A stretch of 64,000 bases of DNA from Psammoneis japonica (lineage: Eukaryota). This document shows, piece by piece, positions 12,001-64,000 of the stretch (position 1 is its first letter; each line of letters starts with the position of its first letter). A program made the position numbers and the translations under genes. The DNA is taken from NCBI GenBank assembly GCA_008632985.1, contig QPGO01000056.1, positions 276,406 through 340,405 of the forward strand. The letters run 5' to 3'. Under the pieces are notes generated by a model that saw only the letters and a list, made by a program, of their open reading frames with translations, did no database searches and had not been told where the DNA came from.

Positions 12001-12129
12001 TTGGCTTTCTCTGTCCTCTTGGCACAACCCCCGTTCCACTCTGCAACTTTCTGCAATTTTTTGCTGTTGTGCTCCAGTCCTTGCCTCCACTGCCACTCTC
12101 TCTCCCACCTCCCTGGCCACTCCAGTCAA

Positions 12130-20102: not shown

Positions 20103-20120
20103 CGTGGAGTGTTGCAGCAC

Positions 20121-27905: not shown

Positions 27906-28208
27906 TCGAACTCCGCCCCTGTCTGAGAAGCAGGCCACCCACATTTGACAAATTGCACTCATCACTTGTGCGCAAATTTCACTTTGCACGTTGTGCTTTC
28001 TTTCTGTGCCCAAATCTTTGAGGATGGATCTTCAAACAAACTGCATCACTTGCACGCAAATTTCACTTTTGTTGCTGTGGTCTGTTTTTTGGGTCTCGCA
28101 ATTTTTGTAAAAAATGACCCGGGTTCGTTGCACCAAATCCGCTCATTTGCCAAAAACAAAATTTCAATGACAGGTCAAACTTTGTCCACTTCAAAGACAT
28201 TGCACACA

Positions 28209-29400
28209 CACACCCTGTGGATCACCCTTGTCCTCATCCAAAATGGAGGCAGGCTGTGCAACCAAAGCAACTGCTGCTGCAGCTCAGCCGAGGACAATCC
28301 TGCAGAGAATGTCCATGCTCATGCAAATGTGTGTCACGTGGGGTGTCCGGTGTCCACCCATCCACCCCTGTCCCCAAGCATGCAAGCAAAGCTGCAGTGC
28401 CTCCATTGAGGACAGTGGAGAATGCCCACACTTGTGCAAAAGTGTGTCATGTGGGGCACCCTGTCCTCAAGTGTGAAAGCAAACCTTCAGTGCCTGCATC
28501 AGTGCGGTGCACTGCCCCGCTGGCTCCCCAATTTGCAGCCACCATTGGTGCCATCCATCTTTCATCCCCAGAGCCATTTTGTCTCAACTTCTCTGGGCAG
28601 CCATGGGCTGCCATTCTGTTTTCAACTGCTGGACCCATGGCTGCACTGAGGGCCTGTGGCAGGGTTGTGAGCTGCTGAGCAAAAGTGTGCTGGGCTGACA
28701 AAAGAAATTGTGGGAACCTGTCACAAACAAAGATGACAGCCTGAAAGAAGATCTTCTGGACATGCTTGCAAAGCATGCCAAGGAGCACAACTTGCTCAAC
28801 AAAAAGGGCTGGAAAATGAGGAGAGCCAACGAGCGCAAATGCCAAGCTGAGGGCCAAGGTGGTTGAGGCAATGCAGAGCGGCTGCAGAGTGTCTTGGTGG
28901 GTGACAAAGATGACAAGCACTTGATTGGACAGCTCTTGGGTGACAAAGATGATGAGCGCTTGACCAGTCAGCTCCGGGGGCTCTGGGTGCAATTCCAAAA
29001 GCTCTGGCACCAGCATTGGGCGCGAATGAGAATCGCAGCATCACAAATCTTGCTTTGGGGGGTGGTGGTCCAGGTGACTCACAAGTGCGCAAAACTTTGT
29101 CTCAAGCTGGGTGCCATCAAAAAGAGGCGGCTGAAACTTGGGGTGCCAACAAGGTGCTTTTCCAGCTGCGGCAATGTCCAGGTTGGCACTCTTCACACAA
29201 ATGGCATCAAAGTGCTGGTGCAGACACTCGCACATGGAGAAAAACAGGTGGGAATGGAGAGCCATGGACATGCGAGGGTGGGCAATTTGCCAGCCTTGAT
29301 GCCAAAGACAAGGAGACACCAGCACCTTTCCAAAACAAAAGATCTTTGGCTCAACAAAGCTCAAGATGTTGCAGCTGATGTGGTGCACACAAGCAGCCCA
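28209..29400. repeat. ~1.19-kb dispersed repeat, copy 2
   Basis: Direct copy of 4899-6060. Confidence 0.85.
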
Positions 29401-29765
29401 AAAATGTGGCCCTGGAAACAACTTTCACCAGACTGTTTCGGCTCTTCTTGCCACACTGCAACCTCTCAGCTTTGGGCCTCTCAAATCCTCAGCCTTGACT
29501 TCGGCTTTGCCCTTTCCAACCAAACCATCTCTCCACATGCCAAACTCTTCTTCTTGGCCATCCCATTGTTGCTGACAACTCCTCTTCTTGGCCATCTGTC
29601 CACACTTTGGGCCCAGCCTTTTTCTTCTCATCCCCAAGCGCGCTCCGCGCACCTTTCCCACCACACATTTCTCCAGATCCGTCCCCTCCAATGTCATGGA
29701 CCCCCACAACTTTTAAAAAAGCAACAACAGCACACACCACACACCACACCCAACAACAAAAACAA
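29401..29765 (+). mobile_element. Possible 3' tip of another CRE-like non-LTR element
   Basis: Pyrimidine-rich, similar in style to 13000-13265, with a CA/A-rich tail; no catalytic motif seen. Confidence 0.35.
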
Positions 29766-30052
29766 GTGGTCAATGCTCCCCGCGGGCTGGCTTGCAATGT
29801 TGAAAAACCAATCGATTTGCAGACTTTCACACAGATGCTTTTAAAGGCAGAGGACAGACCTTTTTTTTTTGCTGCCATGCCGCTGGCGACTGGCGTCGCT
29901 TTGCTCGCACGACTTTTTGCAGTGATCTGATTCTAGAGACAGGCAATCAGCAGGGATGGGAGGACTTTGCTGGCGCAGTTGGTCCCTTTCCATTCCCAAG
30001 CTGGAACGGCATGGCCAGAGGGAGGGAGAGGTGGGAGTGCTTTTAGACTGTC

Positions 30053-30498
30053 TGCAACACACAGCTGCTGACAAGAGCCAATGTGTCACGGCGACGTGTT
30101 GCAGCCTTTAAATGTCTCAAGGGCGTGACAAAAACAACCTTTTGTCTGCATGCACACTGCACTGTGAATTCACAGCGGAGTGGTTCATCGCAACCATTGG
30201 GCAGGAGGCCAGGGGTTCGAAACCCTGAGCAGGAGTTGTCTGCAGCAACGTTGATCACTGTTGAACGCGTAAAACTCTGTGCAGTTCTGTGTGTTCCTTC
30301 GCACGTACCCACACTGTTCCGCCAAAACCGTGCAGTGTCAGTGCACGTTAGTAAAGAGCCGTGTGGACGCGTGACACATGGGGAGGAGTGCAACACACAG
30401 CTGCCAACAAGAGCCAATGTGTCACGGCGATGTGTTGCAGCCTTCAAATGTCACAAAGGGCGTGACAAAAACAACCTTTTGTCTGCATGCATGCTGCA
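30053..30498 (+). mobile_element. TRIM (miniature LTR element) nested in Ngaro copy 2
   Basis: TG...CA direct repeats at 30053-30161 and 30389-30498; PPT ggggaggag abutting the 3' LTR; 4-bp TSD tgtc/cgtc; absent at the equivalent site of copy 1 (~2440). Confidence 0.88.
30170..30240 (+). promoter_or_regulatory. tRNA-like internal Pol III promoter (A and B boxes)
   Basis: cAGCGGAGTGG (A box if the original was TAGCGGAGTGG) and cagggGTTCGAAAccctg T-arm hairpin/B box. Confidence 0.6.
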
Positions 30499-30898
30499 CG
30501 TCTGTTCGGCTTGCTGCTGAAGCTCTTTGGAAGAATGGGCAACAGCAGCTTGCTTCCAGATGCCAACCCAGATGTGTTCAATGGAGGTGGAGCGGGGGGT
30601 GACTTCCCGGTGCGTCATCAATGGGTGATGAGGTCATCTCCCCTTGTCGGTCTTTGTGAGGCCAGCGACTGGCGTCGCTTTGCTCGCGCGACTTCTTGCG
30701 GTGATCTGATTCTAGAGACAGGTGATTGGCAGGGATGGGAGGACTTTGCTGGCGCAGTTGGTCCCTTTCCATTCCCAAGCTGGAGCGGCATGGCCGCTCC
30801 GGCGCTGCCCACGTACACTGGTGTGGGCAGTGGCGGTGCAATTGGGTGGGTGGGTGGGTGGGCCCGGCTGGAAGGCTGAGGCGCGGCCTGTGATGGAA

Positions 30899-32053
30899 TC
30901 ACGGGTCGGCGGGGGCAAGGGGCACGTCGGCATTGAGGTGCAGGACAAATTGGCCGCCAGCCAACATGCGGGTTGCGAAATTGTGCATGACGGGTTCTGC
31001 TTGCAAGTGGAGGTGACGGAGCATCTCGTCGGAGTGCCATCGGCCTGAGAGGCGGATCACGTCGGTGTCAACATGGGCACATGGGAGGGCCATGGCACCA
31101 GCCGTGTGCAAACAGCGAGCGGAGACATCGGCGGGTGTGAAACCCAGCGCAGTGGGGCCGATTGCCAGAATTGCGGCACGTGGGATGCTGGCAATGCCGG
31201 CGGGAGAGACACGGCACCAGGTGTTGTCATGCAAGTGCACACCAAGGGGCATGTCTGGTGTGGTGCCAAAGGTGCGGAGATGTTTCACTCGACGGACAAG
31301 GGCGCGTGTCGGACAGAGGTCAGGGTGTCCGGATGGGCCAAGGCCCATGACTTTGCCGCGCATGCCATTGTTCTGTGTGGCAAAAGTGAGCGTGCCAAAG
31401 GTGGCAGTGTCGAGGTGTTCATCGGTGCAGGTGAACAAATCGAGGCAAGTGCCTCCAGCGGAGAGGCGAACATCTCCCAACCGAAAAGGAGTGGTGTCGG
31501 AAGGCGCTGCGGTGTGTTCGCCTGGCCGCAGGAGGAAGAAAAAGGCCAAAGCAGTCATGTCTGCGATGGCTTGGGTGCCCGGATGATTTGTCAGGGAGGC
31601 AGCATGGGCAATCCACAAGAGAACAGCGACGGGGACCAGTTTGACCCGGTCTGGGGGAGGATCCTCTTTCTTGTAGAAACGGATTTGGCAGCTGATGCGG
31701 AAATCCATGTTGCCTTGGAGTGTGTGCCGCGGGTCCGGGGACCCCATTGCAGCGAATGTTTGGCCAATCGACCGCAGGGCACCCTCAGTGGTGCGTGCGC
31801 GGACGGGATTGCCACGTGGGGCGATGGCGCCTGTGCGGAATCGGTGCATGAAAACTTGGAAAAAGATGACTGGGTCGTCGACATCTTGCAAGAGAGGGTC
31901 GAGGGCCAAGTCGTTACAAAAACTTCGCCAGAGGTCCCAGTGGGCATTGCTGGAGCTGGCGGAAGAAGCAGCAACGCCGTGGGCAACGGCGTGTTGCACA
32001 GCGCCGAGATCACATGGGAGCGCAGCGCGGGTGGCGGGGTCCAAAGGCACCAA
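30899..32053 (-). pseudogene. Tyrosine recombinase of Ngaro copy 2 (open frame, catalytic Tyr>His)
   Basis: LLRPGEHT and GRWHSDEMLRHLH, versus MLRYLH in copy 1. Confidence 0.88.
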
Positions 32054-33620
32054 GAGGGAGTCTGTGGATGATGAGTGTTAAAATGGTGCAAGAAGGCACA
32101 GTTGGACAAATGTTGCAAGCGAGAGGCGTCATCCGCAGCAGTGTTCAACGGTCCCGGCAAACAATCGTGGAGTGACAGGCAGCGGTGGAAACGTTGGTGG
32201 TGACCTTGGCATCAGAGGAGGGGTGCTGCGACCTTTGCAGCAGTGGTGGAGCCCTTGCGTTGACGAAAGAGAGTGCCGGTGTTGTCTGTGCGGTTGAGCA
32301 CTGTGCACTCTCGAACGTTGAAACAGTCCGCCGCGGCACAGGATTGCATGGTGCCACCGACCAACTCCAAGTCGGTGTTGGCAATGGGGCTGCGGGGATT
32401 CTCAAAGGTGGACAGTCGGTCAATGACTGCCCAGGGAAATTCATGTGCCAGACAACAGGTCCGGCATTGTGTTGTGGTCTCCGGCGGTGCGCAGTGGAGC
32501 AACGCAGCATGGTGCTGCGTGCGACCGCTGACGGCGCAGGGAGAAGGACCCCCCTGCACCATGACTGGCTGCATCATGGCAGCCTGCAACAGCAGGCAAC
32601 AGGGGGACAAGTTCTTGGACACGGGTGGGGCGGAGGTCGAGCCCGCGGCATGACAACCGAAAATCATCCAAGATGTCGTGAAAGTTGCGGGCAAGACGAA
32701 CTCGCCCATCTGGCCCAGTGTGGAGCAAGGCTTCCTGGAGTTCGGAGAACAGATTGCGAGACCCGGGAATGCCGGGCGTGAGGGATCGCAGTTCGCCAAG
32801 AAGCTTGCGCAGGTCGGCAAGCGCTGCCCGCTTGCAATGGCGGGGAAACTCTTCGCACAGCATGGTGTGGAGGCGCTCGCGGCGTCGTGGCGCAAGGCAG
32901 ATGGTCATGGACAAAGTGTCAATGATCCACCCTGGGACCTCCTTCTGCGTTGACCAAGTGGCGTCGCCTTTGCGGAGCTTTTTGACTGAGATTGGCTCCT
33001 CGCAACTGGGGTGGTCTTGGTCATCAATGGCGTGCATGATCGTGCGATGCACACTGCACAGCGATTGTTTGGAGCCTTGGGCGGCGCCGATAAAGTCATC
33101 AACATGGATGTCAACATGTTGGAGGCGCTGCCGGCGGTGGTGCGCGAGGTGTGGATCCGGCGTGTCTGGCACTGGGACAGCGACAGACGGACTCACGTCA
33201 GCAGTGACAGCGCGGTGCTTTGGTGGACGGCCATCAAGGTGAGGTTCGAGTGGGTGGTGCGGTGCCCGATGGTTGCGCACGAGCTGGCGATTGGCAATGT
33301 CGGTGACCGTCTTGGTTGCCGCACTAAATGCCGGTGGTGAGTTGGACCATCCCATGGGCAGCCGAGTGGGTGTGGCTGCTGGGGGAGGTTCTCCCGGAAG
33401 GCGGGGAAAAACCACACCTGGTGTGGGTGCTTGCTCTGGTGCCAGCTGCATGCAGTGGAAGCCATCAGCCAGGTCAATCTTCATGAGACAGACGCGGCCT
33501 TTGTTTGGGTTGGTGAGGAGAATGCGCCGAAGGGTGCGGTCCAATGTGCACCCGAACTGCATGGATTCCATCGGCATGTTTGGCTGTGTGGAAGGGTCAA
33601 CACCGCACTGTTTGTTGCAG
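31950..33620 (-). pseudogene. RT / RNase H of Ngaro copy 2
   Basis: MESMQFG, KIDLADGFH, RLPMGWSNSPPAF, HVDIHVDDFIG (YxDD mutated to HVDD), HDAASHGAGG. Confidence 0.9.
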
Positions 33621-35570
33621 ACGATGGAATTGTTGCCTGGCGCATTTACACGGCTTGGTCCAGGCGGTGACTGCACAGAGGTCTGCGAACGTGGCATCGT
33701 GGGCGGTTGAAGGACAGACGTTGGCAGGTCGAGACGCCAATGGCAGGCGCCTTGTGTGGCCTCAGCCACCACTGGGAGCGGTTGGAATGGGACAGGGTTT
33801 TGTGAGTGCATCTGCGCTTGAAACCAATGGCACATCTTCACCTGCGCGTGATGTTGCAGGTCCGCTGGTGACGTCGGGTGCGACACCACTTGCGCCGCCA
33901 AATCGTTGGCGCAGACATCCATGGACTGGCGCACGTGAGTCAACCACTGCACCAGTGGATGTGCTGCGCCAAAGGCTGCAGAGAGGACGATGCGCAACCT
34001 GTCGAAAGACTGTTGAACCACCTGGATCGCAGTGGCCACCATGGCATTGTCGGGGGCTTCCAACACTTGCGTGTCCGCCAGCGAAGGTGTGCCATTGCCT
34101 CCATGAATCTGTTGATGCACAGAGTTGCGACAGGCGGTCTGCTCGGCTTGTTCCGGTGCAGTGATGCGAACAAAAAAGGGGTGATTCCCTGGGTTAACTC
34201 GTCCTTGTTGTGCCGGCGAAGTCGACTTGGGTGAGTTTTGTGATCAGATTTGTGGTCACCGGCACATTGAAGTGCACGTGGTGTGCTTGCCATTGCTCAT
34301 TGATTGCATTCTGGATGGTGGCGATTCGACCGGTCTTGGGAGAGGCTGCCAGTTGCGCCCAGAGTGGTGGCAAGTTGGCTTCATGATGCACCTGGCACAA
34401 ACGCATGAGTTTGGCTGTGCCAAACTCCCCGCAGAACTCCGTCGGTGTTTTGCCGCGCGATGCCGCCTGTTGGCACGCTTCCGCATCTAAACGTTGTTGG
34501 CACTGCTCTGCTGTCAAGCTCTCAATGGCCGTGACCACTGGTTCAAACTGGCGCGGTTGTGGCAGTTGGCCCACGCGGTTCGGAAGATCACGCTGCACCA
34601 TCGCGTCGAAGAAACGATTTGGCGCTTCGTTGGGTGGTTGCGCCATCATTGGCCATGCTTGCGCTGCTTCAGATGTGTGTTGGTCCCACACTGTCGTGCA
34701 GCACGCCACTTTCAAAAAATCCAGAAGTGGCCTGCATTCGTTGACCGCATTGGCAGCTGTGACAGCTCCCAGCACCTGGGCAAATGCTTGCTTCGGCATC
34801 AATGGCGTTGAAAGCAAGAGATTAACACACGCGAATGGCACCATCATGGTGTTCCGCGTCCTGACCTCAACAGCGTCTGGGTCGTTTGGCGCACTTGTGG
34901 ATGCAATCCTTCCGGGGTTGCAACAATGTGGGCTTGCAGCGCAGCGTCAGTCGGCACCCATGTGCCGTGTTGGGCCAACTGGAATGCATCATTAGCGACG
35001 GGTGCAAGTTGGTGTTGTCCCATCGTCAGGTCGCCCATGAGCACAAAAAATTGTCCGTCCCACGGTTGTGCTGGTCCTGCTGCCGTGATCGGGCACTGGG
35101 TTGCGTGATGGAGCACCTGCATGACTCCAATGTCGTTGCCTCCTGGCACCCAGCAGTGCTGCACAAGAGCCATGGGCAAATTGTGCAAAGAAGCTGCCCC
35201 AACTTGGGTCCTCAGCACGTTGGGGTCACAGCGTGACTGTCCTTGTAGTGGGACCATGAAGTCCTGCATGATTTCCACACAGTTGCCGGCGCATGGATCC
35301 TTGATGGCATGCGAGCAGCAATCCCAACAAGTGTGGATTGCTGCTGGTGGCGCTGGAACGCCCTGCCCCGCGGGACCTGCTGGCGGTGCGGGTGGCACTT
35401 GGGGTGGCGGCTGTTGTGGTGGCGCTCCAGGGGCTTGTCCCACCTGCACTGCGGCTGGTTGTGCCGCTGCTCCTGGCACTGCCGGCACCACTGAATGCAC
35501 CGGTGCTGGGGCACGTTCTGGGCATTGTTGGCCGCCGGAATCGGTTGTTGATTTTGTCTGCCCCCAGGTT
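33620..35570 (-). pseudogene. gag-like ORF1 of Ngaro copy 2, frameshifted
   Basis: Lies upstream of RT; Pro/Ala/Gln-rich N-terminus; AKLMRLCQVHHEANLPPLWAQLA. Confidence 0.6.
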
Positions 35571-36707
35571 GTTGTGCCGCTGCAGCGGCGTCCGGCAGCA
35601 GATTGTTTCCGATGTTTCCGTCTTGATTCATGACGTGTGACGATCCTGCAAGCTTTGTGGATGCAGCGGCGGATGGCATCCTCTGCCAAACACAGCGGCA
35701 CTTCCAGACCATCCACTTGGCTTGCTGCTGAAGCTCTTCGGAAGAATGAGCAACAGCAGCTTGCTTCCAGATGCCAACTTAGATGCGTTCAATGGAGGCA
35801 GAGCGGGGGGTGACTTCCCGGTGCATCATCAACGGGTGATGAGGTCATCTCCCCTTGTCGGTCTTTGCCGGTGTGAGGCCAGCAGCCAAGGGGGCGGGCG
35901 GGCGTGTGTGGTCACTGTAAATGCGCAGAAAATAAATGCGCAGAGAATCGCTGCTGCGGCACTGTGCCACTCTCTCCACCAGAGCAGAGAGCAGGGCTGC
36001 CGCACCGTCACACCCAAAATTCTACCCAAGCAGCATTATTCTACTGGAAAGTGGAATTCTCGTATGTAAAAATGTCAATACGGTGTTGGTATTTTCTAAA
36101 AAGATCTACCGTACATCCACTGTTTATTCCACTCAGGTAGAAGGCACAGTAGAATTTTCGGAGCCAAAAATTCTACCCTGCGCGCCCCTTTCGCGCGATC
36201 TAAACAGTCTGTCCTTGGTGCGTGATGTCGAATGCGACGGGAGGAACAAAAAAAATACTCGAAAGTTCTACTCGTCTCAATGCGGCATCTCAACCATGAG
36301 CGTTGCCGTATGCAACCCCGGCAACTGCACCAATGCCAACTGCATCTATGGTGGCATGGCAAGCAGCACTCACAGGCGTCCTGAGTGCATTAGAAACCTT
36401 CACACTCCCTGTGGGAAAGCAGACGAACGACTTGCACTACTTTCAACTTTGACAAGCTCTAAAGCACCTATTTGAGATTACTGTTGTGAATTTTATATTT
36501 AAATATTACTAAACAATTGCATTAGCCTAAGGAACAATTAGCACCTCATTGCACTTCCACCAGCTTGAGAAGAAAACAAGCTGCTCCCTAGCGCGGAAGG
36601 CACGACCAAGGGTTGCTGCCGTTGATCTTTAAATAGATTGTTCCGCATCCTTGGCTTGAGATACATTTTTTTATAACTATTTGGTCCGTATTCACCTTGG
36701 CACCTAT

Positions 36708-47895: not shown

Positions 47896-48106
47896 CGGAT
47901 GTCGAGAATCGCAAATGCGATCGCACGATGATGTTGACATCTTGTGTGTCAACATCAATCGCATCCGGACAATCTGTTGTCACGATCATATTCTCCGAAA
48001 GGCCTTTTGTCTGTGGGAGCAGTGCAAAAGGTTCAGGCCATTGAGAACCCGTTCGGAGAAACCCAAAATGATTGCGCAGAAATGGTTCTCACAATTTTCA
48101 CTTTTT
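47896..48106 (-). repeat. Inverted, diverged ~210-bp homologue of the Gypsy LTR core
   Basis: Reverse complement aligns to ~58037-58246 (shared RSxDDVDILxVNxNRIRTICCH translation in the ORF track). Confidence 0.85.
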
Positions 48107-51849: not shown

Positions 51850-51884
51850 GTTGATTAGCGGCAGATAGTTACTACATATACAAT

Positions 51885-54474: not shown

Positions 54475-54649
54475 CGTTGTAAGTCGACCGCCGACGGAAT
54501 GCAAAAAAAGCAAAAACACATCATAATAACGGGCGTGAAAAGAAACGAGAAACCAAAACGAGCGAGAAAGGTTTGGACGTGCGTGAATGAAATGCTGAGT
54601 CACGTCACATCCTGCCATCCGGGCGGGGGCAAGACGAAAAAAAGCGAGC

Positions 54650-57600
54650 ATGCATTTTGCCCTGCAGAACCATGATGTGTTGAAGAGTTTTTTCTGGCTC
54701 AAAACAACAACACGCTCAAATTGGTGCAGCCAATTGTGGCACCTTGCTGACTTAGAAAAATGTGGCATCTCTGAGGTGCTTTGTTGTGAATTCTCAAAGG
54801 AGTGCCGTGCGCCCCAGCATGTGTTGGAATTTCGCAGCTTGCTGGCCAGTGTGCGTTGGTCTCACCCACCCCAAACTCACCACCAGCATCCACCATGTGG
54901 CTTGCAAACACGTTGTTCTCCCCACAATGATGTCAACCACTGTTGCTGTGCCAGCCATGTGCAGAAGCCCAAAAGTGAGATCACAAGACCCCCCCACAAC
55001 TCACCCGAGTTGTGAGCGCGGGGGGTCAACACGTTGCCCATGATCATCAGCGCATCTTGCACAGCCACATTGTCTGTCTCTCCTGCATGAGCCACTTCTT
55101 ATCCCAGTGCTCCAACAGCAGAGGTGCATGACAAGCTTGAGAATGTGCAGCTTTGTGTGGGTGGCCGACGGGAAAAACTCTCATTGAGAGTTTGCGCTGG
55201 CTGACAACGTCAATTCTGTCACATCAAAATGGACCCCATGCATTGCCACTCATGCTGTGTGCTTGTTCATTGTGACTTTGTGCCTTGTCATGCTTTGCTG
55301 TTGCATGTGTGCCATCTTTCCACTCTGCTCTTTTGTTCTGTGGGGTCTCCATCATTGTGAGCCATGCCGGAGACAGATTTTTCCCAGACAAGAGTTGTCA
55401 TCTCTGCTGCATGGTGTCCACAGCAATCCAACAATGAGGCCAAGTCACAGACACAGCATCAGGAAGAGCTCATGACAAATGCATTAACTTGGAGCTGCAA
55501 GGTTTCAAAAGCTGGGCAAGCTCTCAAGAGCTCCAGTCGTCTGTCATCGCACACTTTTGACCAGAGAGTTTGCTCTGATTCTGTCTGTTGACATGTGGAA
55601 TTTTGCTCGGCAGACAAATGCATCATGGCAACTCTGTGAAGTTGTGGACTGTTTCTTTTGGCTGCTCACAAGCTGGAAATCTGCAACCTTTTTTGCATCA
55701 TTTGTCAGCTGGTGCCACAATGTCAGTGAAACAAACTGACAGCTGAGTTGTGTGCAGCACCTGCCTTGACAATCCACTGCACTGTCAGCTTTTGCTTGGA
55801 ACACAAAAAATCAGCCACACTTGCCTTGTTCTGTCACAAAGGAAACTGTTGAGCTGTTCTTGGCTTGTTTGTGTTGTTCAGCCCCAATCAAATGACCTGT
55901 TGGACACAGTCCCATGAGCAAGTCACACATTTCCTGATTTGGCAGATCTCATTCTTTCACTGAATGCCAGCCAGATTGATGTGCTTCTCTTGTGCAGCAG
56001 AAACCAGACCATCTGGCACACCTTTTGCACAGAACCACTGCCATGCTCCAAATGGGGCCAATTTGACTTGGCTTGCACTTGGGTGACTGCAAGCAGTCCA
56101 AGTCAGGCACACCCACAAGGTTTGTGATTTTTGTCAACAACTTGATGGGACACAGGATGCGCACCACAGCATTCATCTTTGCACCATGTGTTGGTGAGTG
56201 GCTGACACAAGCCAGATTTTCAGGATCACAATCTTCAGCATTTTCAGCTTTTTCTCATCTCCAGCAACATGGGTTGCTTGCACCCCATTTGATGCCCCGC
56301 CTCAACCAACTGACTCCACTCTTTGTCAACAAGAAAACTGTGAAGCAAGGCTTGCAACCCAAGGCCTGCCAACAATGATGCCCTTGCCATCCAAAAAATG
56401 TGGGCCACCAGGCCATGAATGAGCTGTTGCCTTGCAGCTGTTGTTCCTGTCCAGTGGTCTTTTGGCGCATGTTCAAGGTTTTCTCAGGCATTGCGCGTGT
56501 TTGATGTGGAGATCCTGCATTTCAAATGCTTGGCTGGCTGCTGGCCTGCACACACATCAATGTGCCAAGCTCATCAATGTTGTTGCTTGCATCACATTTT
56601 TAAGTGGGAGGGCCCTGTGTCACCTGGTGGGAGCAAAAGGCTCACCCTGATTCCCACAAGCTTTGTGCAAAATAGAGCACATTTTTGTCCACCATGACTT
56701 CCTCTGCCCTGTGAGTTGTGAGTCAGTGATTGTTGCTCCATTGCATTGCTGCAATGTCATCAACCATGGCTTCATCCTCTCCAAGTTCTTGTGGCCAGGC
56801 AATGTGAAGATTGGCTTGCTCAAAGTGCACAGGCACACACCACCACATGCAAGTTTTTGCACACACCATCATGACTCCAGGACCACATGTGCAAACAGCC
56901 ATTTTTCACTGCAGGCATCACAGTCAAATGTGCCATTGCACTCTGTCAACAGTGTGCATTTGTTTTACTCTCTTTTTGTGCTTTTTAATTGTTGCTGATT
57001 TGTTTGCAGTGTTCCCACACATGTGCCAGCAGAAGGCTCTGCAGCATTGGCGTGCAATGTCAAAATGACAATTGACCAGTGTTGCACCCTGGTTGTGCTC
57101 TTCTCAGGCAATCAATGTTGTTGGTTTTCATGGTCATCATCTCACAACAATTTCTCAAAAACAGTGTCTGTCACTTCTTGTGGAGGCTCATCTTGGTCAG
57201 CTGCCCTGCACTTGGCGGCACCACTGCTGTGTGTTGTTGTGGTGCACTTGTCAAGTGTGCAAGACTTGCCACATCATTCTTTCCTTTAGGAAAACATCAG
57301 AAGTTACAGCCATGCACCAGCACATCAACAGGAGCTGAAAGAAGAGTGCTGCAGCAACAAGGCAATTTGCTGCAAAAGAGCAAGCAAGATGCCAACAGCC
57401 CAAATGGACAATTTCCAAATTTTGGGGTCACTCAATTCGCTGTTTTTGTGCATGTCAGAGGGGCTCCACAAGCCCGCACCATGCAATGCTGCTGGCCACA
57501 GTGCATTGTGCACAGCTTGCACCCTGAAGATGTTGGCGGCATTTGCCTTGCTCTCCTGCCACAACAACAACATCCCCTGCATCTCCTCGCACATCATGCA

Positions 57601-57985
57601 TCTGGTGATTGATGCATGTTACAGTCCCCAGCCCTCCTCCTCTTCCAGCTCCTGGCTTGCCTGCCCCAGCCCAAAACCCTTTTGCCTTGACCAATGGTCC
57701 TGGTGCTCATCTGAGCTGCATGCCCAGCTCTCTTCCGCCTCCTTCTTGCGCTGAACTTGCAACTTTGTTCTTGCCCCGGGCAAATGTTCTTTGTTCCAAG
57801 CAGTGCTCGGGGCTTTGAGGTTTGAGTCGGCGCCAAAATCTCTCCCCTGTTTTTGCGAGGCACGGCCGTCACTGCCATGTGATGCATGGTTTGGTCCATG
57901 TGGTGTTGGCCTCACGTCTTCATTTTGCCAACGACAACATGTCCACATTTTTTGTCCATTTGTCCAAATCCAAAAAAGGAACGTC
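54650..57985. repeat. Unclassified, heavily TpA/CpG-depleted TE relic
   Basis: Abrupt loss of TpA relative to the adjacent gene; no confidently recognised domain. Confidence 0.5.
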
Positions 57986-57989
57986 CACT

Positions 57990-58356
57990 TGCACTATGCT
58001 CGAAGAACGAGTGTAAACGAAAGTAGAATAGTGTACGAAAAGTGGAAATTATGAGATTAAATTTTGCTCTGTGATTTTTGGTTTCTCCGAACGAGTTCTC
58101 AATGGCCTAAAGCTTCTGCACTGCTTCTACAGACAAAAGGCCTTTCGGAGAATATATTCGTGACAACAGATTGTCCGGATACGATTGCTATTGACACGTA
58201 AGATGTCAACATCGTCAATCGATCGTATTTGCAATTCTCGACATCCGATCAACTCTGTGTGATCGTTCTGTCCTTTGTACGCATCCACGACTGTGGTACG
58301 ATTGACATATAAATAATATATAATCATAAATATGTATATAACAGTCGCATACTGCA
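57990..58356 (-). repeat. 3' LTR (367 bp, mostly TpA-intact)
   Basis: Direct repeat of 62348-62715. Confidence 0.95.
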
Positions 58357-61300
58357 TTCGCCTCCCTAATTGCACATTAGAGTCATTTGTAAGTGGATTA
58401 TTCGACGGACATCGACAGTGTCAATAATGTCTCCACTTTCACTGTATTGTGCCATTAGCAATGACTGTTGTTGTTTTGTATAGGCAATATAGGGCCGTTC
58501 CAATTTCCGAATGTCTTTTGAGAGTGACATTGTTTGTTTCTCACTTAATATGTATATATAGTATTACGTCGAGTATTCTCATTGACGTTCTTGTTGATAT
58601 GAACACAAGGACTAATTGTCCTGGAGTAAGTGTTTTTCCTGATATCGATTGTACATAGCATCGTGCCCAGTACTTAATGTACGCTCTTAATTATGGCGTT
58701 CACTTACTTACTTGTGGATTTCATGTAGTTTGGCGGGCTTACTTTATATGCCATATTGCTCTGCTGCACTACCACGTTTCATAAGTAATAATAAACGATG
58801 GTCAAAGATATTATGACCATTTCGTCTTGATAATCAATCCTGTGATGGTTATGAATTCCATTATGGATTTTTTTTTTGTACTTCAACCATCTATCAGTTG
58901 GATTTTAATCGTTATTTGGACGTTTCTTTCTGACATACCGGTGTTATTTTGTCATTCCGAAGGCAGTGGTTTCGTGCACTAAGTGGATAAATGTCCATTT
59001 TTCTTTTCTTTTTCTAGATCTTTGGCACATCTCGTGTGTCGACATGATGTATATTTTAATGTCTTGCCTCGTACATTGTACAATACAACCGTACGGGTGT
59101 TGTGAGATTGTCTTTTGCCAGTGTGAAGTGGATACGTATAATGTATACCAATCTGTCACTGTTTTTTCCTAAATCGTCCTTTAAAAAGGCGATTTTATCC
59201 TTGTGACATGAGCATTTTTCGATCTCGCTCGCCTCCACGAAAAGTGTTCGTATGATATGTCGCGTCCGACAATTTGGAGGGAATGTCTTTATCCCGTTTT
59301 AACGGTAGGACATTGTCGTAGGATTCAATTTTCTATAGTAAGTCGGCTGATCGCGTCTATCGCGACGATGTTCGCCTTGCCCTCGTTGTATTCTAATTCG
59401 GGACTGAAGTTGTCAACGTATGACTTTGTCCGTTGTGTCTTATGATCCGTATATGTATAAATCTGTTGGCCAAACAGTATATTTCGGAATTTTATAAGTG
59501 TTTTCACTATGGACAGAAGTTCTTTTTTCCGTTGTAACGTATAATATTGAAATGCGTGTATGATAACAATATAGTTTTTGATTTGATACGCTCCATATTT
59601 TCGGAGACTTTTCGTTCCGTACTTGTACTTTTGCCGTTTGACCTTTATTGAGGTGAATTTGGCTAGTATTGTACAGGAGATCATTGAGACTACATGTCTC
59701 GATAATAGTAACGTATGACAACGAGATGTCGTAGTGTTCTTTACGTTTTTCTCGTGTTGCGATTGCTTGAATCGCCTCCATTTTCTTTGCAATCGATTGC
59801 ATGTCGTTACGCATGGAAGTCTTGATAGTTTATTTCAAGTTAAATAGTGAAGGACTTTTGTTGTTAACCTTCTAAGCGACTGTTCTAGTCGTTTGAATGC
59901 CGTATTAAGCTGTTGCTTGTACAGGTGATATTTTGAAGTTACTTTTGTCAGGCACAAACGATCACATATAGTCGTTCTGACAACTTCAAACCTGTTATGA
60001 GTTCACTCAAGTGTTGTATAAAAATATCTGGGGCTCTATAGATTCTCATTGGAAGTCCATAGTACTCATTTTCTCCCCACGGCATGATTTTCGTGTGAGC
60101 ACGACGTGTGCTTTTTTTTATTTGACATGGTGGCATTCCATGTTTGAATCAAATAGATTACATATATGAAACGTTCTTGCTTCAATAGCATTTCCTGAAC
60201 ATTGGGTAAAGGGTGCACCACCTGTATGAACCTCACACTAAGCTTCTGAGTGTCGGATGCGGTCGAACTCGACCTGTTTTCTTTAGACAATGAGTCTCAG
60301 AGCGACTTGTTCAGAGTGATTTCATTCTTGAGACTTCAATCTTTCATAATAGGTCAAACTCCTTTTGATTGGACGCCTCCAAAGACTATGACAGGAGAAG
60401 GTTCTCTCGCGTCGTGGAATCGCGTCAGATTTTCCACGATGAGATCCACTGATGCTTCCCGTGCATTCGTCTGAGGAACTTTTCAAAACGATTTCAACCT
60501 CTTGAGAAGAAGATTGAGTTGGTTGTGTTCATTTGGGTTAGATGCATCGCCGCAGTTGTCACTTGATTAAGATCGATGGCGTGACAATGTGAGTCGAGGA
60601 CCATTGGTTCCGTCATCAACTCCATTCACGGCGTCACATTTTTCAATGTGATCGGTTTTCAGCTTGAAAACATCGGCATCGAAGAGTGTGTGAACATTCT
60701 TCATAAGGCAATTGCTTCTTCCCATTAGATTTCTGCATTTGCGCAGTCCAACATGACTTGCAGGACTGGACATTAAGTCGCGTCCCATGATCATGTCATT
60801 TGAACCTGAAGAAAATTTGGTGTTTTCAACACACACTGTTTGAATGTCAGCATGCCTTAAATTTCGCACAGTGAGAACTGAATTCGGTGTTTGCCATCAG
60901 TCGTAAAGAGCTCACCCTTGGTTTCCCAAGTTTTTGGTGGCGGATTCTTGTGTTCTCAACTTTCGCACGAATTTGCGCAAAATTGTGGTTGACGATGTTC
61001 CGTCATCGATGGGAACACGTAGATGCTTTTTTTTTTCTCCTTTCCCAAGGAAGCATTCATGTAAATGATGACTCCTGGACCAGTGTGAATTATTTCTGCC
61101 TTTTTTCTAGGCTTCCCAATGTCCAGTGAAGCACACAATTCGTGAATGGACCAAAATCATTCTTCGGATTCAGTCTGGATCATCCGATCAAATTGGTGTT
61201 TTTCATCACTGAGGGTGTCAGAATCTGATTCTTTGCCCTTGTGCTCTTTTTCTTTGTTCAAGGAACTCGCTTTGAGCATTTTTTGAACCGCCCAATCAAT

Positions 61301-62347
61301 CATGATGTTCATCTCTTTTTTTGCGAGCGGCATTTTCGTTGTCGCAACGCGACCGCGTGCGATTGCCATTTGAACGGCGCATTTTTGGGTCTCTTTCAGA
61401 GTCACCCTTGCACTCTTTTGCTAGTTCATTTTTAGAACAGCTTCAATCCGTGATGTGGGTGTTCTTTTTTCAAAGATGAGACCTTGCATTCACTTTGGAT
61501 TGTTCTGGCACCATGTGGGAGACCATTTTTGGAACCAAATTTGGAACCTTTTTTTATTTTGGAACCAACTGCGCTGTCAGAGCCTGAGTTGACATGTTTT
61601 TTCATCACGGACGTCATGAACGACCTTTAGATGACTCAAAACTTAATCAGCTCATCAAGGATGAGTTGCAACAGTTGATTGTTTTGGACAGTAGACTGAT
61701 GCTGCCATCCTTGCGGTGCGAGTGATGGCTGACAAATCAGCGCTCGGTTTCCCGCTAGATTCGACTTAGAATCCATCTGAGGGTCGCGTGGACTCTCATC
61801 GTTGACCTCTTGGGTCCAACAGAGGCTTTCTCGCTGTCAAGCAGCTCTGGTTTCTTCAGGTCGTCTCGAAAATAATTTGCCTGATTCTGAAGTGCATTTC
61901 CTCGGAGGACATGAGTTGTGAGATGCTTGAGGCACTTTCCAACGATTCCCTCTTGCTCCTTGGACTCGAGGATCATCGATTCGGTCTCAAAAAACTCTCC
62001 AACAGTCTCTCCTTGCATGGCAGACGCATTTCTCGGATCTGATCGACTCGGAACTTGCATTCTCTGCAACCATGACTTGGTGTAGATTTTTTGATGATGC
62101 AGTGTGCTTGAGAGCCCTTGATCCTTGGGTGCTTGGAACAGACCGTGTTGGAGCGAATCCTCTTGTCTGGCAGACGAAAAACAGCGTTCCATCTTGAGGC
62201 ACTGCTCGGCTTGAGCTTCTTCCGCTCGGAAATCGATTCCAGCAGAACTGGTGCGATTCATTCCTGTTTGTAGAAGAATTTGCAAAGGCACATCAGTTAA
62301 AATTTTCATTTTCCGTGCTTTTTACCTTCTGTGGTGTGCACACACAA

Positions 62348-62715
62348 TGCACTGTGCTCGAAGAACGAGTGTGGGACGAAAGTAGAACAGTGTGCGAAAA
62401 GTGGAAATTATGAGATTAAATTTTGCTCTGTGATTTTTGGTTTCTCCGAACGAGTTCTCAATGGCCTAAAGCTTCTGCACTGCTTCTACAGACAAAAGGC
62501 CTTTCGGAGAATGTGTTCGTGACAACAGATTGTCCGGATGCGATTGCTGTTGACACGTAAGATGTCAACATCGTCAATCGATCGTATTTGCAATTCTCGA
62601 CATCCGATCAACTCTGTGTGATCGTTCTGTCCTTTGTACGCATCCACGACTGTGGTGCGATTGACACACAAATAACATGCAATCATAAATGTGCACACAA
62701 CAGTCGCACACTGCA
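62348..62715 (-). repeat. 5' LTR (368 bp, TpA-mutated)
   Basis: Direct repeat of 57990-58356. Confidence 0.95.
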
Positions 62716-63539
62716 CACTTTTTCGACATCCGGGTCTTTTTTTGGGTGCTGAAACTTACGTTCAAAGCTGCACGCGCACTTGTGGTACAAGAGTTACGTA
62801 CGTGCTGTCCATGCATTGGTTTTTCCACGGCGCTTTTTCCATGCGGCACATGGCATGGGGGATTCCCATCTGTGAAGTGATAATTTGGTGTGAAGTGATC
62901 ACGCAGAATTGCACGTGTTTTTTCTAGTGCTGAAATTCTGATCAGAACGCCACCAACTTGTGTTGTGATTCATCAATGGATGCAATCATTTGCACACAAA
63001 TCGCCACAGTAAAGTTTGCCGTCGAGTTCCAGATGAGAGAAAAATCTTTCCCTCCATCTCATCTCTCATCTCTCCTCCACTCAACTTCTCGCCGAGAAAA
63101 AAAAAAACGCAAAAACCGTCATCCCGACTCGTCGACCATGGCGCTCTAGTTCCGAGCCTGTCGTCCATGCTGTTGAGCTGTTGACACACCATTCGATTCG
63201 CAAGAGTCGACACAACAAGAGACTGTGCGCAGCATGTGCGCAATGCATTGTCGCACTGTTTTTTTCTGTCATTGTCGACGTACATCCCAGCAGTGATTTT
63301 GCATGAGGTTTGAATTTTACAATGATCCGTGTGCAACAATCAGCTCGACATAAATTTCAAAAACACCCACAACATAAAGCAGACTTGTCTTACAACAGCA
63401 ATCTGTGTTTGCCACCATGTGCATTCATCCTCAGTGTGTTGACACTGTCACTGCTCCTTCACCGGCGGATGCATTCAAACCTTTGGAAAAAGCCAAGGCG
63501 AAAGGTAGAGCAAAGGGAACGAAATGCCCACGTGTGGAG

Positions 63540-64000
63540 AAGTCTTTGAAGTTTCACATTCTTGTGGACTTCTGTGCAAACGGCAATGGAGTTTCTTCAA
63601 GCCATTGCTGCAAGAATGTCCACCCCGAGCACAGCACCCGTTGCAACACCCTGAATCGGGCATGGGGACAAAGTGGACTTCGTCGTCTTCATCAAGAAAG
63701 TGCTTCAGTGGAGAAAGCACAAGAAGCCATTTGCAACTGTTTTGGAGCGAAAGACAAGAAGGCAAAGGAGGCAATCACTGCCTTGCACAAGGGGAATGGA
63801 ATTCTCACTGACGACGAAGAGCAGCATGTTGTTGAAGTTTGCTGCTGGTTGGGTCAGATGGGATGCGGAGTGTCAAAGGACACCATTCTTGATGTTGTGA
63901 ATGACTTGGCCAATGAGTGCATTGATGAGCGTGAAAAACCATCTGTGTCTGATTGTTTTGTGTGCTCCATGCTCCAACGCCATCCAAAGCTGGCAAAACT
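63540..64000 (+). mobile_element. pogo/Fot1-like transposase N-terminus (CENP-B-type HTH), degenerate, runs off the window
   Basis: LTDDEEQHVVEVCCWLGQMGCGVSKDTILDVVNDL...SMLQRHPKL. Confidence 0.6.

What the first reader, a model, noticed from the sequence alone, without database searches (positions are those of the whole stretch)
57990..62715. Candidate novel genome-defence system: repeat-targeted TpA>TpG/CpA hypermutation (inverse of RIP), captured in an LTR pair
Seen: manual alignment of the two LTRs gives 18 simple substitutions plus one complex site (gtgtaaacg vs gtgtgggacg). All 18 destroy a TpA in the 62348-62715 copy: 9 are A>G and 9 are T>C, e.g. gacatataaataatatataatcataaatatgtatataac becomes gacacacaaataacatgcaatcataaatgtgcacacaac. 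No CpG differs between them. Established: LTRs are identical at insertion, fungal RIP makes CpA>TpA, and 5mC decay makes CpG>TpG, so neither process explains this. Inference: changes on both strands and in only one LTR point to post-integration mutation of chromosomal DNA, not RNA editing or RT error, at a rate far above background. I know of no described system with this signature, but I could not search the literature.
Basis: partly seen in the sequence, partly recalled or inferred. Interest (0 to 1): 0.95.

Follow-up and report, generated by a model that had tools for sequence, protein, structure and literature searches.

The report
TpA-erasing hypermutation in a diatom retrotransposon
The two end-repeats of a jumping gene differ only where TA in one copy reads TG or CA in the other, and this is part of a genome-wide-looking process, so far described only in one unrelated alga, that wipes TA out of transposon DNA.

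Summary
The LTRs 57990-58356 and 62348-62715 differ at 18 simple sites, all TA versus TG/CA (9 A/G, 9 T/C), plus one complex site. None of the 21 CpGs differs.

The proposed direction, TpA>TpG/CpA, is supported.
- At 21 of the 39 best-supported places where other copies differ from the window, they carry TA where the window has TG/CA. The reverse occurs once.
- 29,744 bp of the window holds 79 TA where about 1,691 are expected.
- An RT-like ORF in such a block has no Tyr and reads HVDD where relatives read YVDD.

This is not fungal RIP, CpG decay or RNA editing.

The claim that nothing like it is described is out of date. A 2026 bioRxiv preprint (10.64898/2026.01.13.699255) reports exactly this signature in the chlorarachniophyte Bigelowiella natans.

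The window comes from a diatom, judged by the named best hits of two genes. That makes it a second, distant lineage, with LTR retrotransposons as targets and near-complete TpA loss. I also see a preference for T-A-pyrimidine.

"Repeat-induced" is not shown, and the enzyme is unknown. Adenine deamination is my leading inference.

The parts
57986..57989 (.). Target-site duplication CACT, left copy
   Evidence: Read. The same 4 bases follow the right LTR at 62716-62719. Four bases could match by chance (1 in 256).
57990..58356 (-). 3' LTR of the element (the element lies on the minus strand). This is the TA-rich, unedited copy: 29 TA, GC 0.387.
   Evidence: Contigs of run X2 match 57997-58390 with 0-1 differences (table 8).
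58357..58369 (-). Polypurine tract (reverse complement TTAGGGAGGCGAA) directly upstream of the 3' LTR on the minus strand
   Evidence: Read. Supports the minus-strand orientation.
58357..60250 (-). Unedited internal half. It holds the degenerate RT (about 60290-59546), RNase H (59528-59310), a weak integrase match (59266-58955) and a C-terminal match (58434-58345). 150 TA, rho TpA 0.87, GC 0.38.
   Evidence: Pfam RT_RNaseH, E 4e-5, 24.2 bits, just under the cut-off of 24.8. Twenty Ty3/gypsy polyproteins map collinearly by tblastn. Composition.
60251..62347 (-). Edited internal half (gag-protease side): 28 TA, rho TpA 0.18, GC 0.449, CpG rho 0.87
   Evidence: At 9 listed places other copies have TA where the window has TG/CA.
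62348..62715 (-). 5' LTR, the edited copy: 10 TA. 19 of the 29 TA of the other LTR read TG or CA here. GC 0.443.
62716..62719 (.). Target-site duplication CACT, right copy
   Evidence: Read
62716..64000 (.). Right flank. This is another repeat, partly TpA-depleted to about the same degree as the element's right half, with normal CpG.
   Evidence: Summed depth is 300-1100 against about 60 for unique DNA. At 11 listed places other copies have TA where the window has TG/CA.
54500..57989 (.). Left flank, an old TA-free and CpG-poor block that ends exactly at the LTR edge (last TA at 57620, next at 57995)
   Evidence: Contigs of run X1 cover 55443-56296 with 0 differences and 56269-58017 with 2 differences (table 8).
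47896..48105 (-). Third, partial copy of the LTR (85-86% identical), at the edge of TA-free block 47750-50500. It shares only one TA with one of the two LTRs.
25750..36000 (.). TA-free block. From 30500 it is GC-rich with normal CpG and holds the RT-like ORF 32444-34243 (minus strand, P0121, 600 aa, no Tyr, HVDD in place of YVDD).
1..13000 (.). TA-free block. 1-2444 is an inverted 90% copy of 30500-32949. 4899-6060 is a 90% copy of 28209-29400.
17250..20000 (.). TA-free block with tandem repeats (18896-19958)

Best explanation
A degenerate Ty3/gypsy-type LTR retrotransposon (minus strand, 57990-62715) inserted into already TpA-free DNA of a diatom genome. After insertion, a domain running from about 60250 through the 5' LTR and into the right flank was hit by a DNA-level process that turns TpA into TpG or CpA. 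In other words an A:T pair becomes G:C at the self-complementary dinucleotide TA, on either strand. The left half and the 3' LTR were spared, so the two LTRs now differ only at TA sites. The same process has taken almost all TpA out of about half of this 64-kb window. The stripped blocks are transposon-derived or unrecognisable, while blocks with recognisable cellular genes keep normal TpA. The process works faster than CpG decay, raises GC, prefers T-A-pyrimidine, and cannot create an in-frame stop. It removes every Tyr codon. SHOWN: the signature, its direction, the domain structure and the context preference. INFERRED: that it is enzymatic, most likely deamination of adenine to hypoxanthine in 5'-TA-3' of DNA, as the B. 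natans preprint proposes; that it acts as a genome defence; and that it is the same system as in B. natans. I put the adenine-deaminase step alone at about 0.45.
For: (1) LTR pair: 18 of 18 simple differences are TA versus TG/CA, 0 of 21 CpG differ, and 0 of 309 non-TA positions differ outside the complex site. That gives a rate contrast of at least 34-fold.
(2) Direction from other copies: at 21 of the 39 best-supported places where other copies in run X1 differ from the window, the window has TG/CA and the others TA, at shares of 0.46-1.00. Nine of these lie in 60392-62150, 11 in 62917-63806 and 1 at 59915. The reverse pattern occurs once (59145). The left half shows only 3 listed differences in 1.9 kb, so it is close to the family majority. 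A contig of run X2 carries the TA version at 60392, 60463 and 60504.
(3) Window mosaic: the depleted blocks hold 79 TA in 29,744 bp where 1,691 are expected (rho 0.047; rho CpA+TpG 1.71). The normal blocks hold 1,202 TA in 25,754 bp (rho 0.63). The longest TA-free run is 1,961 bp. 29 of 64 1-kb windows pass the preprint's cut-offs.
(4) Accurate-read contigs (word depth about 60-90) reproduce the TA-free flank 55443-58017 with 0 and 2 differences.
(5) Protein evidence: P0121, in a TA-free block, has 0 Tyr in 600 residues. Three columns have Tyr in at least 60% of the 60 best homologues, and P0121 has H, H and N there. Position 263 has Tyr in 56 of 58 homologues, and position 380 is the Y of YVDD. 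P0121 keeps other conserved residues far more often: 20 of 31 Leu, 24 of 30 Pro, 19 of 22 Gly.
(6) Family control: 80 metagenome loci of the same RT family have rho TpA 0.37-0.86, and none has a 1-kb window at or below 0.2.
(7) Context: in the LTR, 18 of 40 A sites in TAY were edited against 0 of 16 in TAR (Fisher p = 0.00095). Residual TA in depleted blocks are 49% YTAR and 6% RTAY, against 20% and 26% in normal blocks (chi-square p = 6.9e-10).
(8) The B. natans preprint measured the same signature de novo in mutation-accumulation lines.
Against: - Run X1 may be the sample the window was assembled from, and its library type is not on record. The read check is therefore not independent.
- Only 40 of 171 variant places were printed, chosen by support. 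Over all 171, A>G (38) and T>C (34) are as common as G>A (37) and C>T (34). This fits other copies also being edited, but I could not inspect those places.
- At the 4 LTR sites that the third LTR fragment can polarise, 3 agree with TG and 1 with TA. The fragment sits in a TA-free block and has itself lost the TA shared by both LTRs, so it is a poor outgroup.
- The element is high-copy. An assembly mosaic, or a recombination or gene conversion between an edited and an unedited copy, would give the same picture without in-place editing of one insertion. The 4-bp TSD is weak protection against this.
- Among the 21 family-polarised sites only 11 are in TAY, so the context preference is not absolute. 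That list is biased toward sites that other copies kept.
- No close intact relative of the gypsy element was found, so Tyr loss could not be tested in its right half.
- No genome is held, so no deaminase could be sought.
Confidence: 0.8

Rival explanations
1. Ordinary RIP-like polarity. TG/CA is ancestral, and the left LTR plus the left half gained TpA by C>T at CpA, as in fungal RIP.
For: The LTR pair alone cannot give direction. The left half has borderline RIP indices in 59001-60000 (TpA/ApT 0.89, (CpA+TpG)/(ApC+GpT) 0.89). Three of the 4 sites that the third LTR fragment can polarise read TG.
Against: Other copies carry TA at 21 listed places where the window has TG/CA. The left half differs from the family majority at only 3 listed places. 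A process that makes TpA cannot produce kb-long tracts with rho TpA 0.00-0.05. A conserved Tyr reads His in a TA-free RT. The organism is a diatom by the named best hits of two genes, not a fungus. The fragment used as outgroup has itself lost its TpA.
Confidence: 0.03
2. Artefact. Either base-calling or polishing errors at modified bases make TA read as TG/CA, or the assembly has stitched an edited and an unedited copy of a high-copy element together, so the 'LTR pair' never sat on one molecule.
For: The element is very high in copy number: summed depth is 8,000-37,000 against about 60 for unique DNA. The tool warns this figure is not a copy number. The only holder runs come from one sample and one study, possibly the source of the assembly. 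The contig table shows several alternative joints inside the element (table 5).
Against: Contigs with word depth 60-90 and lengths up to 315 kb indicate accurate reads. They reproduce 2.6 kb of unique TA-free flank with 0 and 2 differences. A base-level artefact would not respect TE and gene boundaries, give His or Cys at Tyr codons with the ORF preserved, or show a TAY preference. A mosaic assembly would weaken only the 'one insertion' argument, not the existence or direction of the process.
Confidence: 0.07
3. Same phenomenon, different chemistry. The base attacked is the thymine of TpA (motif R-T-A). For example, T is modified to 5-hydroxymethyluracil or a glucosylated derivative, and then mispairs or is misrepaired to C. 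Adenine is not deaminated.
For: TpA is self-complementary. A>G in T-A-Y on one strand is therefore indistinguishable from T>C in R-T-A on the other. From memory, not from a call: dinoflagellate DNA carries 5-hydroxymethyluracil preferentially at TpA and TpC, and TET/JBP-type thymine hydroxylases occur in protists.
Against: Nothing in the sequence decides between the two. The preprint's authors favour A deamination and name an ADAT2-like candidate. The U33-A34 context of tRNA adenosine deaminases matches T-A (recalled).
Confidence: 0.25
4. RNA-level hyperediting (ADAR-like A>I on element RNA), fixed by reverse transcription before integration.
For: ADARs prefer a 5' U, as cited in the preprint's Discussion. 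Retroelement RNA is a known ADAR substrate.
Against: Nine changes are T>C and nine are A>G on the same strand. The two LTRs of one insertion differ. The edited domain starts mid-element and continues into non-element flank. The single-copy flank is also TA-free.
Confidence: 0.02

Closest known systems
TpA-specific hypermutation of integrated viral and foreign DNA in Bigelowiella natans (Mettrop et al., bioRxiv 10.64898/2026.01.13.699255, April 2026; abstract, Results and Discussion read)
   Same: A>G and T>C changes confined to TpA, giving TpG and CpA. The process is confined to genomic domains. The long-term footprint is TpA depletion with CpA+TpG enrichment in clusters of 1-kb windows. RT and DDE domains are enriched among depleted CDS, and most depleted genes are unannotatable. 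It runs against the usual GC>AT bias.
   Different: The host here is a diatom (stramenopile) by homology, not a chlorarachniophyte (Rhizaria). The preprint's main text does not mention diatoms, stramenopiles, LTRs or retrotransposons. Depletion here is far deeper (rho 0.047 over 29.7 kb, against 0.45 for their NCLDV region) and covers 29 of 64 windows. Here it is caught within one LTR retrotransposon. A T-A-pyrimidine preference is seen here, and I did not see one stated in the sections I read. Their supplements are closed, and their Table S2 may bear on this. CpG decay co-occurs in the older blocks. No rate was measured here.
Repeat-induced point mutation (RIP) of ascomycete fungi
   Same: Hypermutation of transposon DNA by transitions at one dinucleotide, on both strands of chromosomal DNA, leaving dinucleotide-skewed blocks next to normal genes.
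   Different: The direction is opposite (RIP: CpA>TpA; here: TpA>CpA/TpG). GC rises here instead of falling. No stop codons are created here, whereas RIP makes TAA and TAG. Dependence on duplication is not shown. The host is not a fungus.
5-methylcytosine deamination (CpG decay) in methylated transposons
   Same: It also ends in TpG/CpA and also marks the older TA-free blocks here (rho CpG 0.08-0.3 in 3001-10000 and 55001-58000). CG versus TG/CA differences are common in older repeat pairs: 81 in 1-2444 versus 30500-32949.
   Different: It cannot remove TpA. In the LTR pair 0 of 21 CpG differ while 19 of 29 TpA do. Several TA-free blocks keep normal CpG (1-2500, 30500-36000).
ADAR and APOBEC editing of retroelements and viruses in animals
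   Same: Deaminase-type hypermutation of selfish nucleic acids. ADAR has a 5' U preference.
   Different: ADAR acts on RNA and marks one strand. APOBEC gives C>T and G>A. Here both strands of integrated DNA and its flanks show A:T>G:C.

Membership tests
TpA-directed DNA hypermutation as described in B. natans (preprint 10.64898/2026.01.13.699255) | Changes are almost only A>G and T>C | tested here: met
   LTR pair: 20 of 20 mismatched columns are transitions, with A/T in the unedited copy and G/C in the edited one. Direction comes from other copies.
TpA-directed DNA hypermutation as described in B. natans (preprint 10.64898/2026.01.13.699255) | Changes fall on TpA only, giving TpG or CpA | tested here: met
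   18 of 18 simple sites. The complex site also begins with TA>TG but has two further A>G changes and a 1-base insertion.
TpA-directed DNA hypermutation as described in B. natans (preprint 10.64898/2026.01.13.699255) | [quoted passage not shown] | tested here: met
   29 of 64 windows pass, in runs of 10, 2, 10, 3 and 3 plus one single window.
TpA-directed DNA hypermutation as described in B. natans (preprint 10.64898/2026.01.13.699255) | Targets are domains of foreign or selfish origin, and host genes are spared | tested here: inconclusive
   The edited DNA includes a gypsy element and an RT-like ORF. The two Pfam-recognisable cellular genes lie in TA-normal blocks. However, 105 of 106 ORFs in depleted blocks have no retroelement match at E <= 0.01 (104 have no Pfam match at all), so the origin of most depleted DNA is unknown.
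TpA-directed DNA hypermutation as described in B. natans (preprint 10.64898/2026.01.13.699255) | A de novo rate about 1000 times the genome's, episodic among lineages | not testable with these tools
   Only a lower bound is available: at least 34-fold over non-TA positions within the LTR pair.
TpA-directed DNA hypermutation as described in B. natans (preprint 10.64898/2026.01.13.699255) | Presence of the proposed ADAT2-like deaminase | not testable with these tools
   No genome is held for this window.
Fungal RIP | C>T / G>A at CpA/TpG, creating TpA and lowering GC | tested here: not met
   The direction is opposite. GC is 0.38 in the unedited half and 0.449 in the edited half.
Fungal RIP | Triggered by sequence duplication | tested here: inconclusive
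   The edited element and right flank are repeats. The TA-free left flank has single-copy depth, and the unedited half of the same high-copy element is spared.
CpG decay by 5mC deamination | Differences lie at CpG | tested here: not met
   0 of 21 CpG differ between the LTRs. CpG decay is present as a separate, slower process in older blocks.
ADAR-type RNA hyperediting fixed by retrotransposition | A>G on the transcript strand only, within the element | tested here: not met
   9 A>G and 9 T>C lie on one strand, and the pattern extends into the flank.
Ty3/gypsy LTR retrotransposon | TG...CA LTRs, a short TSD, a PPT, and the order RT - RNase H - integrase | tested here: met
   The LTRs start with TG and end with CA. 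The TSD is CACT and the PPT lies at 58357-58369. Twenty gypsy polyproteins give collinear tblastn hits. RT_RNaseH scores E 4e-5, 0.6 bits under Pfam's cut-off. The coding capacity is degenerate. The PBS was not identified.

The most novel reading that the evidence does not exclude
It converts TpA (preferably T-A-pyrimidine) to TpG/CpA on both strands until the dinucleotide, and with it every Tyr codon, is gone. This would be a GC-enriching, stop-free counterpart of fungal RIP. It would shape a large share of some algal genomes, and comparative genomics of the two lineages could identify the enzyme.
Probability: 0.45. Interest if true: 0.88.

Novelty: new member of a known kind. Interest (0 to 1): 0.72.

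Why it matters
If the process is real in a diatom, TpA-directed hypermutation is not a curiosity of one chlorarachniophyte. It would be a genome-defence or heterochromatin-linked mutator present in at least two distant SAR lineages.

Consequences:
- A second lineage allows a comparative search for the enzyme: genes shared by genomes that carry the footprint and absent from those that do not.
- It gives a simple footprint for screening any genome: kb tracts with rho TpA near 0, CpA+TpG near 2, and Tyr-less ORFs.
- It warns annotators that such tracts produce long spurious ORFs. Only TGA stops remain, and 106 ORFs of at least 120 aa lie in the depleted blocks.
- A natural enzyme that edits A:T to G:C in double-stranded chromosomal DNA at a defined motif would also interest base-editing research.

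Tried and rejected
- No whole genome is held for the window, so genome-wide LTR-pair spectra and a deaminase search could not be run.
- Earlier notes of this scan returned nothing by place, by words or by sequence.
- No RNA holder was listed for 55000-63000, so nothing can be said on expression.
- Pfam on 30 minus-strand ORFs of the element gave only the sub-threshold RT_RNaseH match.
- Pfam on 106 ORFs of the depleted blocks gave one weak RVT_1 match and one chance-level EGF match.
- A search for close full-length relatives of the gypsy element found only distant polyproteins: 43-53% identity over about 40% of a 169-aa query. The Tyr>His/Cys test could therefore not be done on the element's edited half.
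- Strand-coordinated clustering was not supported. The runs test on the 18 LTR edits gave P = 0.24. The TG versus CA imbalance in 300-bp windows is no larger in depleted blocks than in normal ones (SD 1.33 versus 1.37).
- The context of the 21 family-polarised sites (11 TAY, 10 TAR; my reading) does not confirm the TAY preference. I set this aside because that list favours sites that other copies retained.
- Literature searches for the signature outside B. natans found only fungal RIP and RNA-editing papers, plus the one preprint. Two diatom transposon papers contain none of the terms TpA, dinucleotide, hypermut, repeat-induced or deamin. One search failed on term syntax.


Full report
THE OBSERVATION

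The direct repeat is real. A local alignment places it at 57990-58356 and 62348-62715, with 368 columns and 347 identical. There are 18 simple substitutions. At every one the left copy has TA and the right copy has TG (9 sites, A/G) or CA (9 sites, T/C). One complex site remains, GTGTAAACG versus GTGTGGGACG.

The left copy holds 29 TpA and the right copy 10. Both hold 21 CpG and none of them differs. Only 58 of the 367 positions lie in a TpA. If substitutions fell at random, 18 of 18 would have probability 0.158^18 = 3.8e-15.

WHAT THE ELEMENT IS

- The repeats start with TG and end with CA.
- They are flanked by the same four bases, CACT (57986-57989 and 62716-62719).
- On the minus strand a polypurine tract (reverse complement of 58357-58369) abuts the left repeat.
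- One minus-strand ORF matches Pfam RT_RNaseH at E 4e-5, 0.6 bits under the curated cut-off.
- Twenty Ty3/gypsy polyproteins found with that ORF map collinearly on the minus strand: RT 60290-59546, RNase H 59528-59310, a weak integrase match at 59266-58955 and a C-terminal match at 58434-58345.

It is therefore a degenerate Ty3/gypsy-type LTR retrotransposon on the minus strand. The 62348 repeat is its 5' LTR and the 57990 repeat its 3' LTR. No close intact relative was found. A primer-binding site was not identified.

In the one sample that holds this DNA, contigs at least 90% alike pile up to a summed depth of 8,000-12,000 over the interior and 32,000-37,000 over the LTRs. Unique flank has about 60. 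The tool warns this is not a copy number. I take it only as evidence of a high-copy family.

THE SURROUNDINGS CHANGE THE PICTURE

The window is a mosaic.

- Blocks 1-13000, 17250-20000, 25750-36000, 47750-50500 and 54500-57989 have almost no TpA. Taking the first block from 2500, they hold 79 TA in 29,744 bp where base composition predicts 1,691. That is rho 0.047, with rho CpA+TpG at 1.71. The longest TA-free run is 1,961 bp.
- Blocks 13000-17250, 20000-25750, 36000-47750 and 50500-54500 are ordinary (1,202 TA in 25,754 bp, rho 0.63). They hold the two Pfam-recognisable cellular genes, a mitochondrial carrier and an AAA_16/NACHT-like NTPase.
- Some TA-free blocks are also CpG-poor (rho 0.08-0.3). 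Others keep normal CpG, for example 1-2500 and 30500-36000.

The element straddles a boundary. From 57990 to about 60250 it is TA-rich (150 TA in the interior, rho 0.87, GC 0.38). From about 60250 through the 5' LTR it is TA-poor (28 TA, rho 0.18, GC 0.449). The right flank is depleted to a similar degree.

The left flank is TA-free right up to the LTR edge, with its last TA at 57620 and the next at 57995. The insertion is therefore younger than the scrubbing of that flank.

DIRECTION

Four lines of evidence give TpA as the ancestral state.

1. Other copies of the family. Contigs of the holder run X1 were laid on 54000-64000, and the table printed 40 of 171 variant places, chosen by support; 39 of those printed are supported in X1. 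I looked up the context of each.
   - At 21 places the window has TG or CA and the other copies have TA, at shares of 0.46-1.00. Nine lie in the element's right half (60392-62150), 11 in the right flank and 1 at 59915.
   - The reverse, window TA and others TG, occurs once (59145).
   - At seven places the window has TG/CA against CG in the others.
   - The left half shows only 3 listed differences in 1.9 kb, so it is close to the family majority.
   - A contig of run X2 carries the TA version at 60392, 60463 and 60504.
2. Composition. A process that creates TpA cannot explain kb tracts with rho TpA of 0.00-0.05.
3. Protein evidence.
   - ORF 32444-34243 (minus strand, P0121) lies in a TA-free block. 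It has 2,528 homologues at E <= 0.001, the best at 1.1e-105.
   - It has no Tyr in 600 residues.
   - Three columns have Tyr in at least 60% of the 60 best homologues. P0121 has His, His and Asn there.
   - One of these is Tyr in 56 of 58 homologues. Another is the Tyr of YVDD, which reads HVDD.
   - TAY>CAY is exactly Tyr>His.
   - P0121 keeps other conserved residues far more often: 20 of 31 Leu, 24 of 30 Pro, 19 of 22 Gly.
4. Family control. Eighty metagenome loci of this RT family have rho TpA 0.37-0.86, and none has a 1-kb window at or below 0.2. These are the 80 best of 403 confirmed matches, so intact copies are favoured.

One result points the other way. The third, partial LTR copy (47896-48105) agrees with TG at 3 of the 4 sites it can polarise. 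It lies at the edge of a TA-free block and shares only one TpA with one of the two LTRs. It is therefore itself edited and a poor outgroup.

IS IT AN ARTEFACT?

The X1 contigs have word depths of 60-90 over unique DNA and reach 315 kb, which points to accurate reads. They reproduce 55443-56296 with 0 differences and 56269-58017 with 2 differences. Both of those are window TG/CA against CG.

All three listed runs come from one sample and one study, possibly the assembly's own source, and the library type is not on record. This is therefore not independent confirmation.

The right LTR's own bases could not be isolated from the other copies. An assembly mosaic, or a recombination or gene conversion between an edited and an unedited copy, would mimic "one insertion, half edited". 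That would weaken the LTR-pair argument but not the existence or direction of the process.

PROPERTIES OF THE PROCESS

- It acts on both strands about equally. The LTR has 9 TG and 9 CA edits. TG/CA imbalance in 300-bp windows is no greater in depleted blocks than in normal ones.
- It is much faster than background. Nineteen of 29 TpA changed while 0 of 21 CpG and 0 of 309 non-TA positions outside the complex site changed. That is a contrast of at least 34-fold.
- It is separate from CpG decay, which appears only in older repeat pairs. There are 81 CG-versus-TG/CA differences and 34 TG-versus-CA double mismatches in 1-2444 versus 30500-32949.
- It has a context preference.
   - In the LTR all 18 edited adenines are followed by a pyrimidine: 18 of 40 TAY sites edited against 0 of 16 TAR sites, p = 0.00095.
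   - Where only one strand offered TAY (6 sites, my count), that strand was the one edited.
   - Residual TpA in depleted blocks are 49% YTAR and 6% RTAY, against 20% and 26% in normal blocks (p = 6.9e-10).
   - TTAA is retained 4-fold. ATAT, GTAT, ATAC and CTAC are retained 0.1-fold.
   - The preference is kinetic, not absolute, because in the deepest blocks nearly all TpA are gone.
   - Among the family-polarised sites only 11 of 21 are TAY. That list favours sites that other copies kept.
- It raises GC.
- By the genetic code it can never create an in-frame stop: TAA becomes TGA or CAA, and TAG becomes TGG or CAG. It removes every Tyr codon. This explains the many long ORFs in depleted DNA (106 of at least 120 aa), of which only 1 has a weak RVT_1 match.

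COMPARISON WITH WHAT IS KNOWN

Full-text searches found one description of this signature: Mettrop et al., bioRxiv 10.64898/2026.01.13.699255 (April 2026). I read its abstract, Results and Discussion. It reports the following.

- In mutation-accumulation lines of Bigelowiella natans, 231 of 302 new nuclear mutations fell in an integrated giant-virus region and a virophage region.
- Almost all were A>G or T>C, and all of those GC-biased changes fell on TpA.
- The rate was about 1000 times the genomic rate, and the mutations appeared in only some lines.
- The authors propose adenine deamination and name an ADAT2-like candidate.

By their cut-offs, 29 of the 64 1-kb windows here qualify.

The preprint's main text does not mention diatoms, stramenopiles, LTRs or retrotransposons. 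Two diatom transposon papers contain none of the relevant terms.

The window is not from B. natans. For two genes, the mitochondrial carrier and ORF 37976-39706, every named protein among the 120 best hits is from a diatom, at 53-59% identity. These include Seminavis, Thalassiosira, Cyclotella, Nitzschia, Fistulifera, Attheya and Bacillariaceae. The best unnamed hits are at 68-71%.

MECHANISM

Shown: a directional, TpA-specific, domain-limited, both-strand change of chromosomal DNA.

Inferred: an enzyme directed to silenced selfish DNA. I favour deamination of adenine in 5'-T-A-3' (about 0.45). This follows the preprint. It also rests on my recollection that tRNA adenosine deaminases act on A34 after the invariant U33, and that TadA's natural site is U-A-C.

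TpA is its own complement, so an attack on the thymine in R-T-A would leave the same trace (about 0.25). An example is a hydroxymethyluracil-type modification followed by mispairing.

Dependence on duplication, which the phrase "inverse of RIP" implies, is not shown. The unedited half belongs to the same high-copy element. The TA-free left flank has single-copy depth. The main target in B. natans is single-copy.

VERDICT

It is not unprecedented. It is the second occurrence, in a distant lineage, of a hypermutation described in a 2026 preprint.

What is new here:
- a different host lineage;
- LTR retrotransposons as targets;
- much deeper depletion;
- a half-edited insertion;
- a T-A-pyrimidine preference.

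I score interest at 0.72 and novelty as "new member of a known kind".

Noticed in passing
window 32444-34243 (-), with copies 1-2444 / 30500-32949: A 600-aa ORF with no stop codon and no Tyr belongs to a large, poorly annotated RT family (Pfam RVT_1 only sub-threshold). 2,528 library proteins match at E <= 0.001. In metagenome contigs, 403 of 464 candidate stretches were confirmed. Many of those contigs are about 6 kb long, which may be whole elements.
   Followed up: partly
proteins P0177, P0223, P0234, P0235, P0242, P0244: Six of the 150 best homologues of that RT ORF have 0-2 Tyr and many His and Cys (for example 1 Tyr, 27 His and 12 Cys in 398 aa). They may be TpA-scrubbed copies in other public data sets. 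Their sources could not be looked up because one search was switched off.
   Followed up: partly
window 45337-47367 (-): A 676-aa ORF with an AAA_16 domain (E 1e-27) and weak NACHT/nSTAND matches. This is a STAND-type NTPase gene in a TA-normal block, next to further long ORFs without Pfam matches (44169-45521, 40756-41778, 37976-39706).
   Followed up: no
window 37501-37750 and 42501-43250: Unusually TA-rich spots inside normal blocks (27-34 TA per 250 bp, CA+TG down to 16-18). A 28-nt perfect inverted repeat lies at 43153-43180 / 43606-43633.
   Followed up: no
window 16331-16578, 26456-26576, 18896-19958, 8706-9651: Tandem duplications. Two are perfect (125 nt x2 and 61 nt x2). There are 339-bp units in a TA-free block with a strong TG-over-CA excess (z up to +4 per 300 bp), and 482-bp units at 80% identity with 15 TG-versus-CA double mismatches.
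   Followed up: partly
window 58014-58016 / 62373-62375: At the complex LTR site, TAAA becomes TGGGA. There are two further A>G changes just 3' of the edited TpA and one inserted G. This does not fit a strict TpA rule.
   Followed up: no
window 55336-55669: A short stretch inside the otherwise single-copy TA-free left flank has about 15 times the flank's summed contig depth (1,090 against 60-100). A small repeat is embedded there.
   Followed up: no
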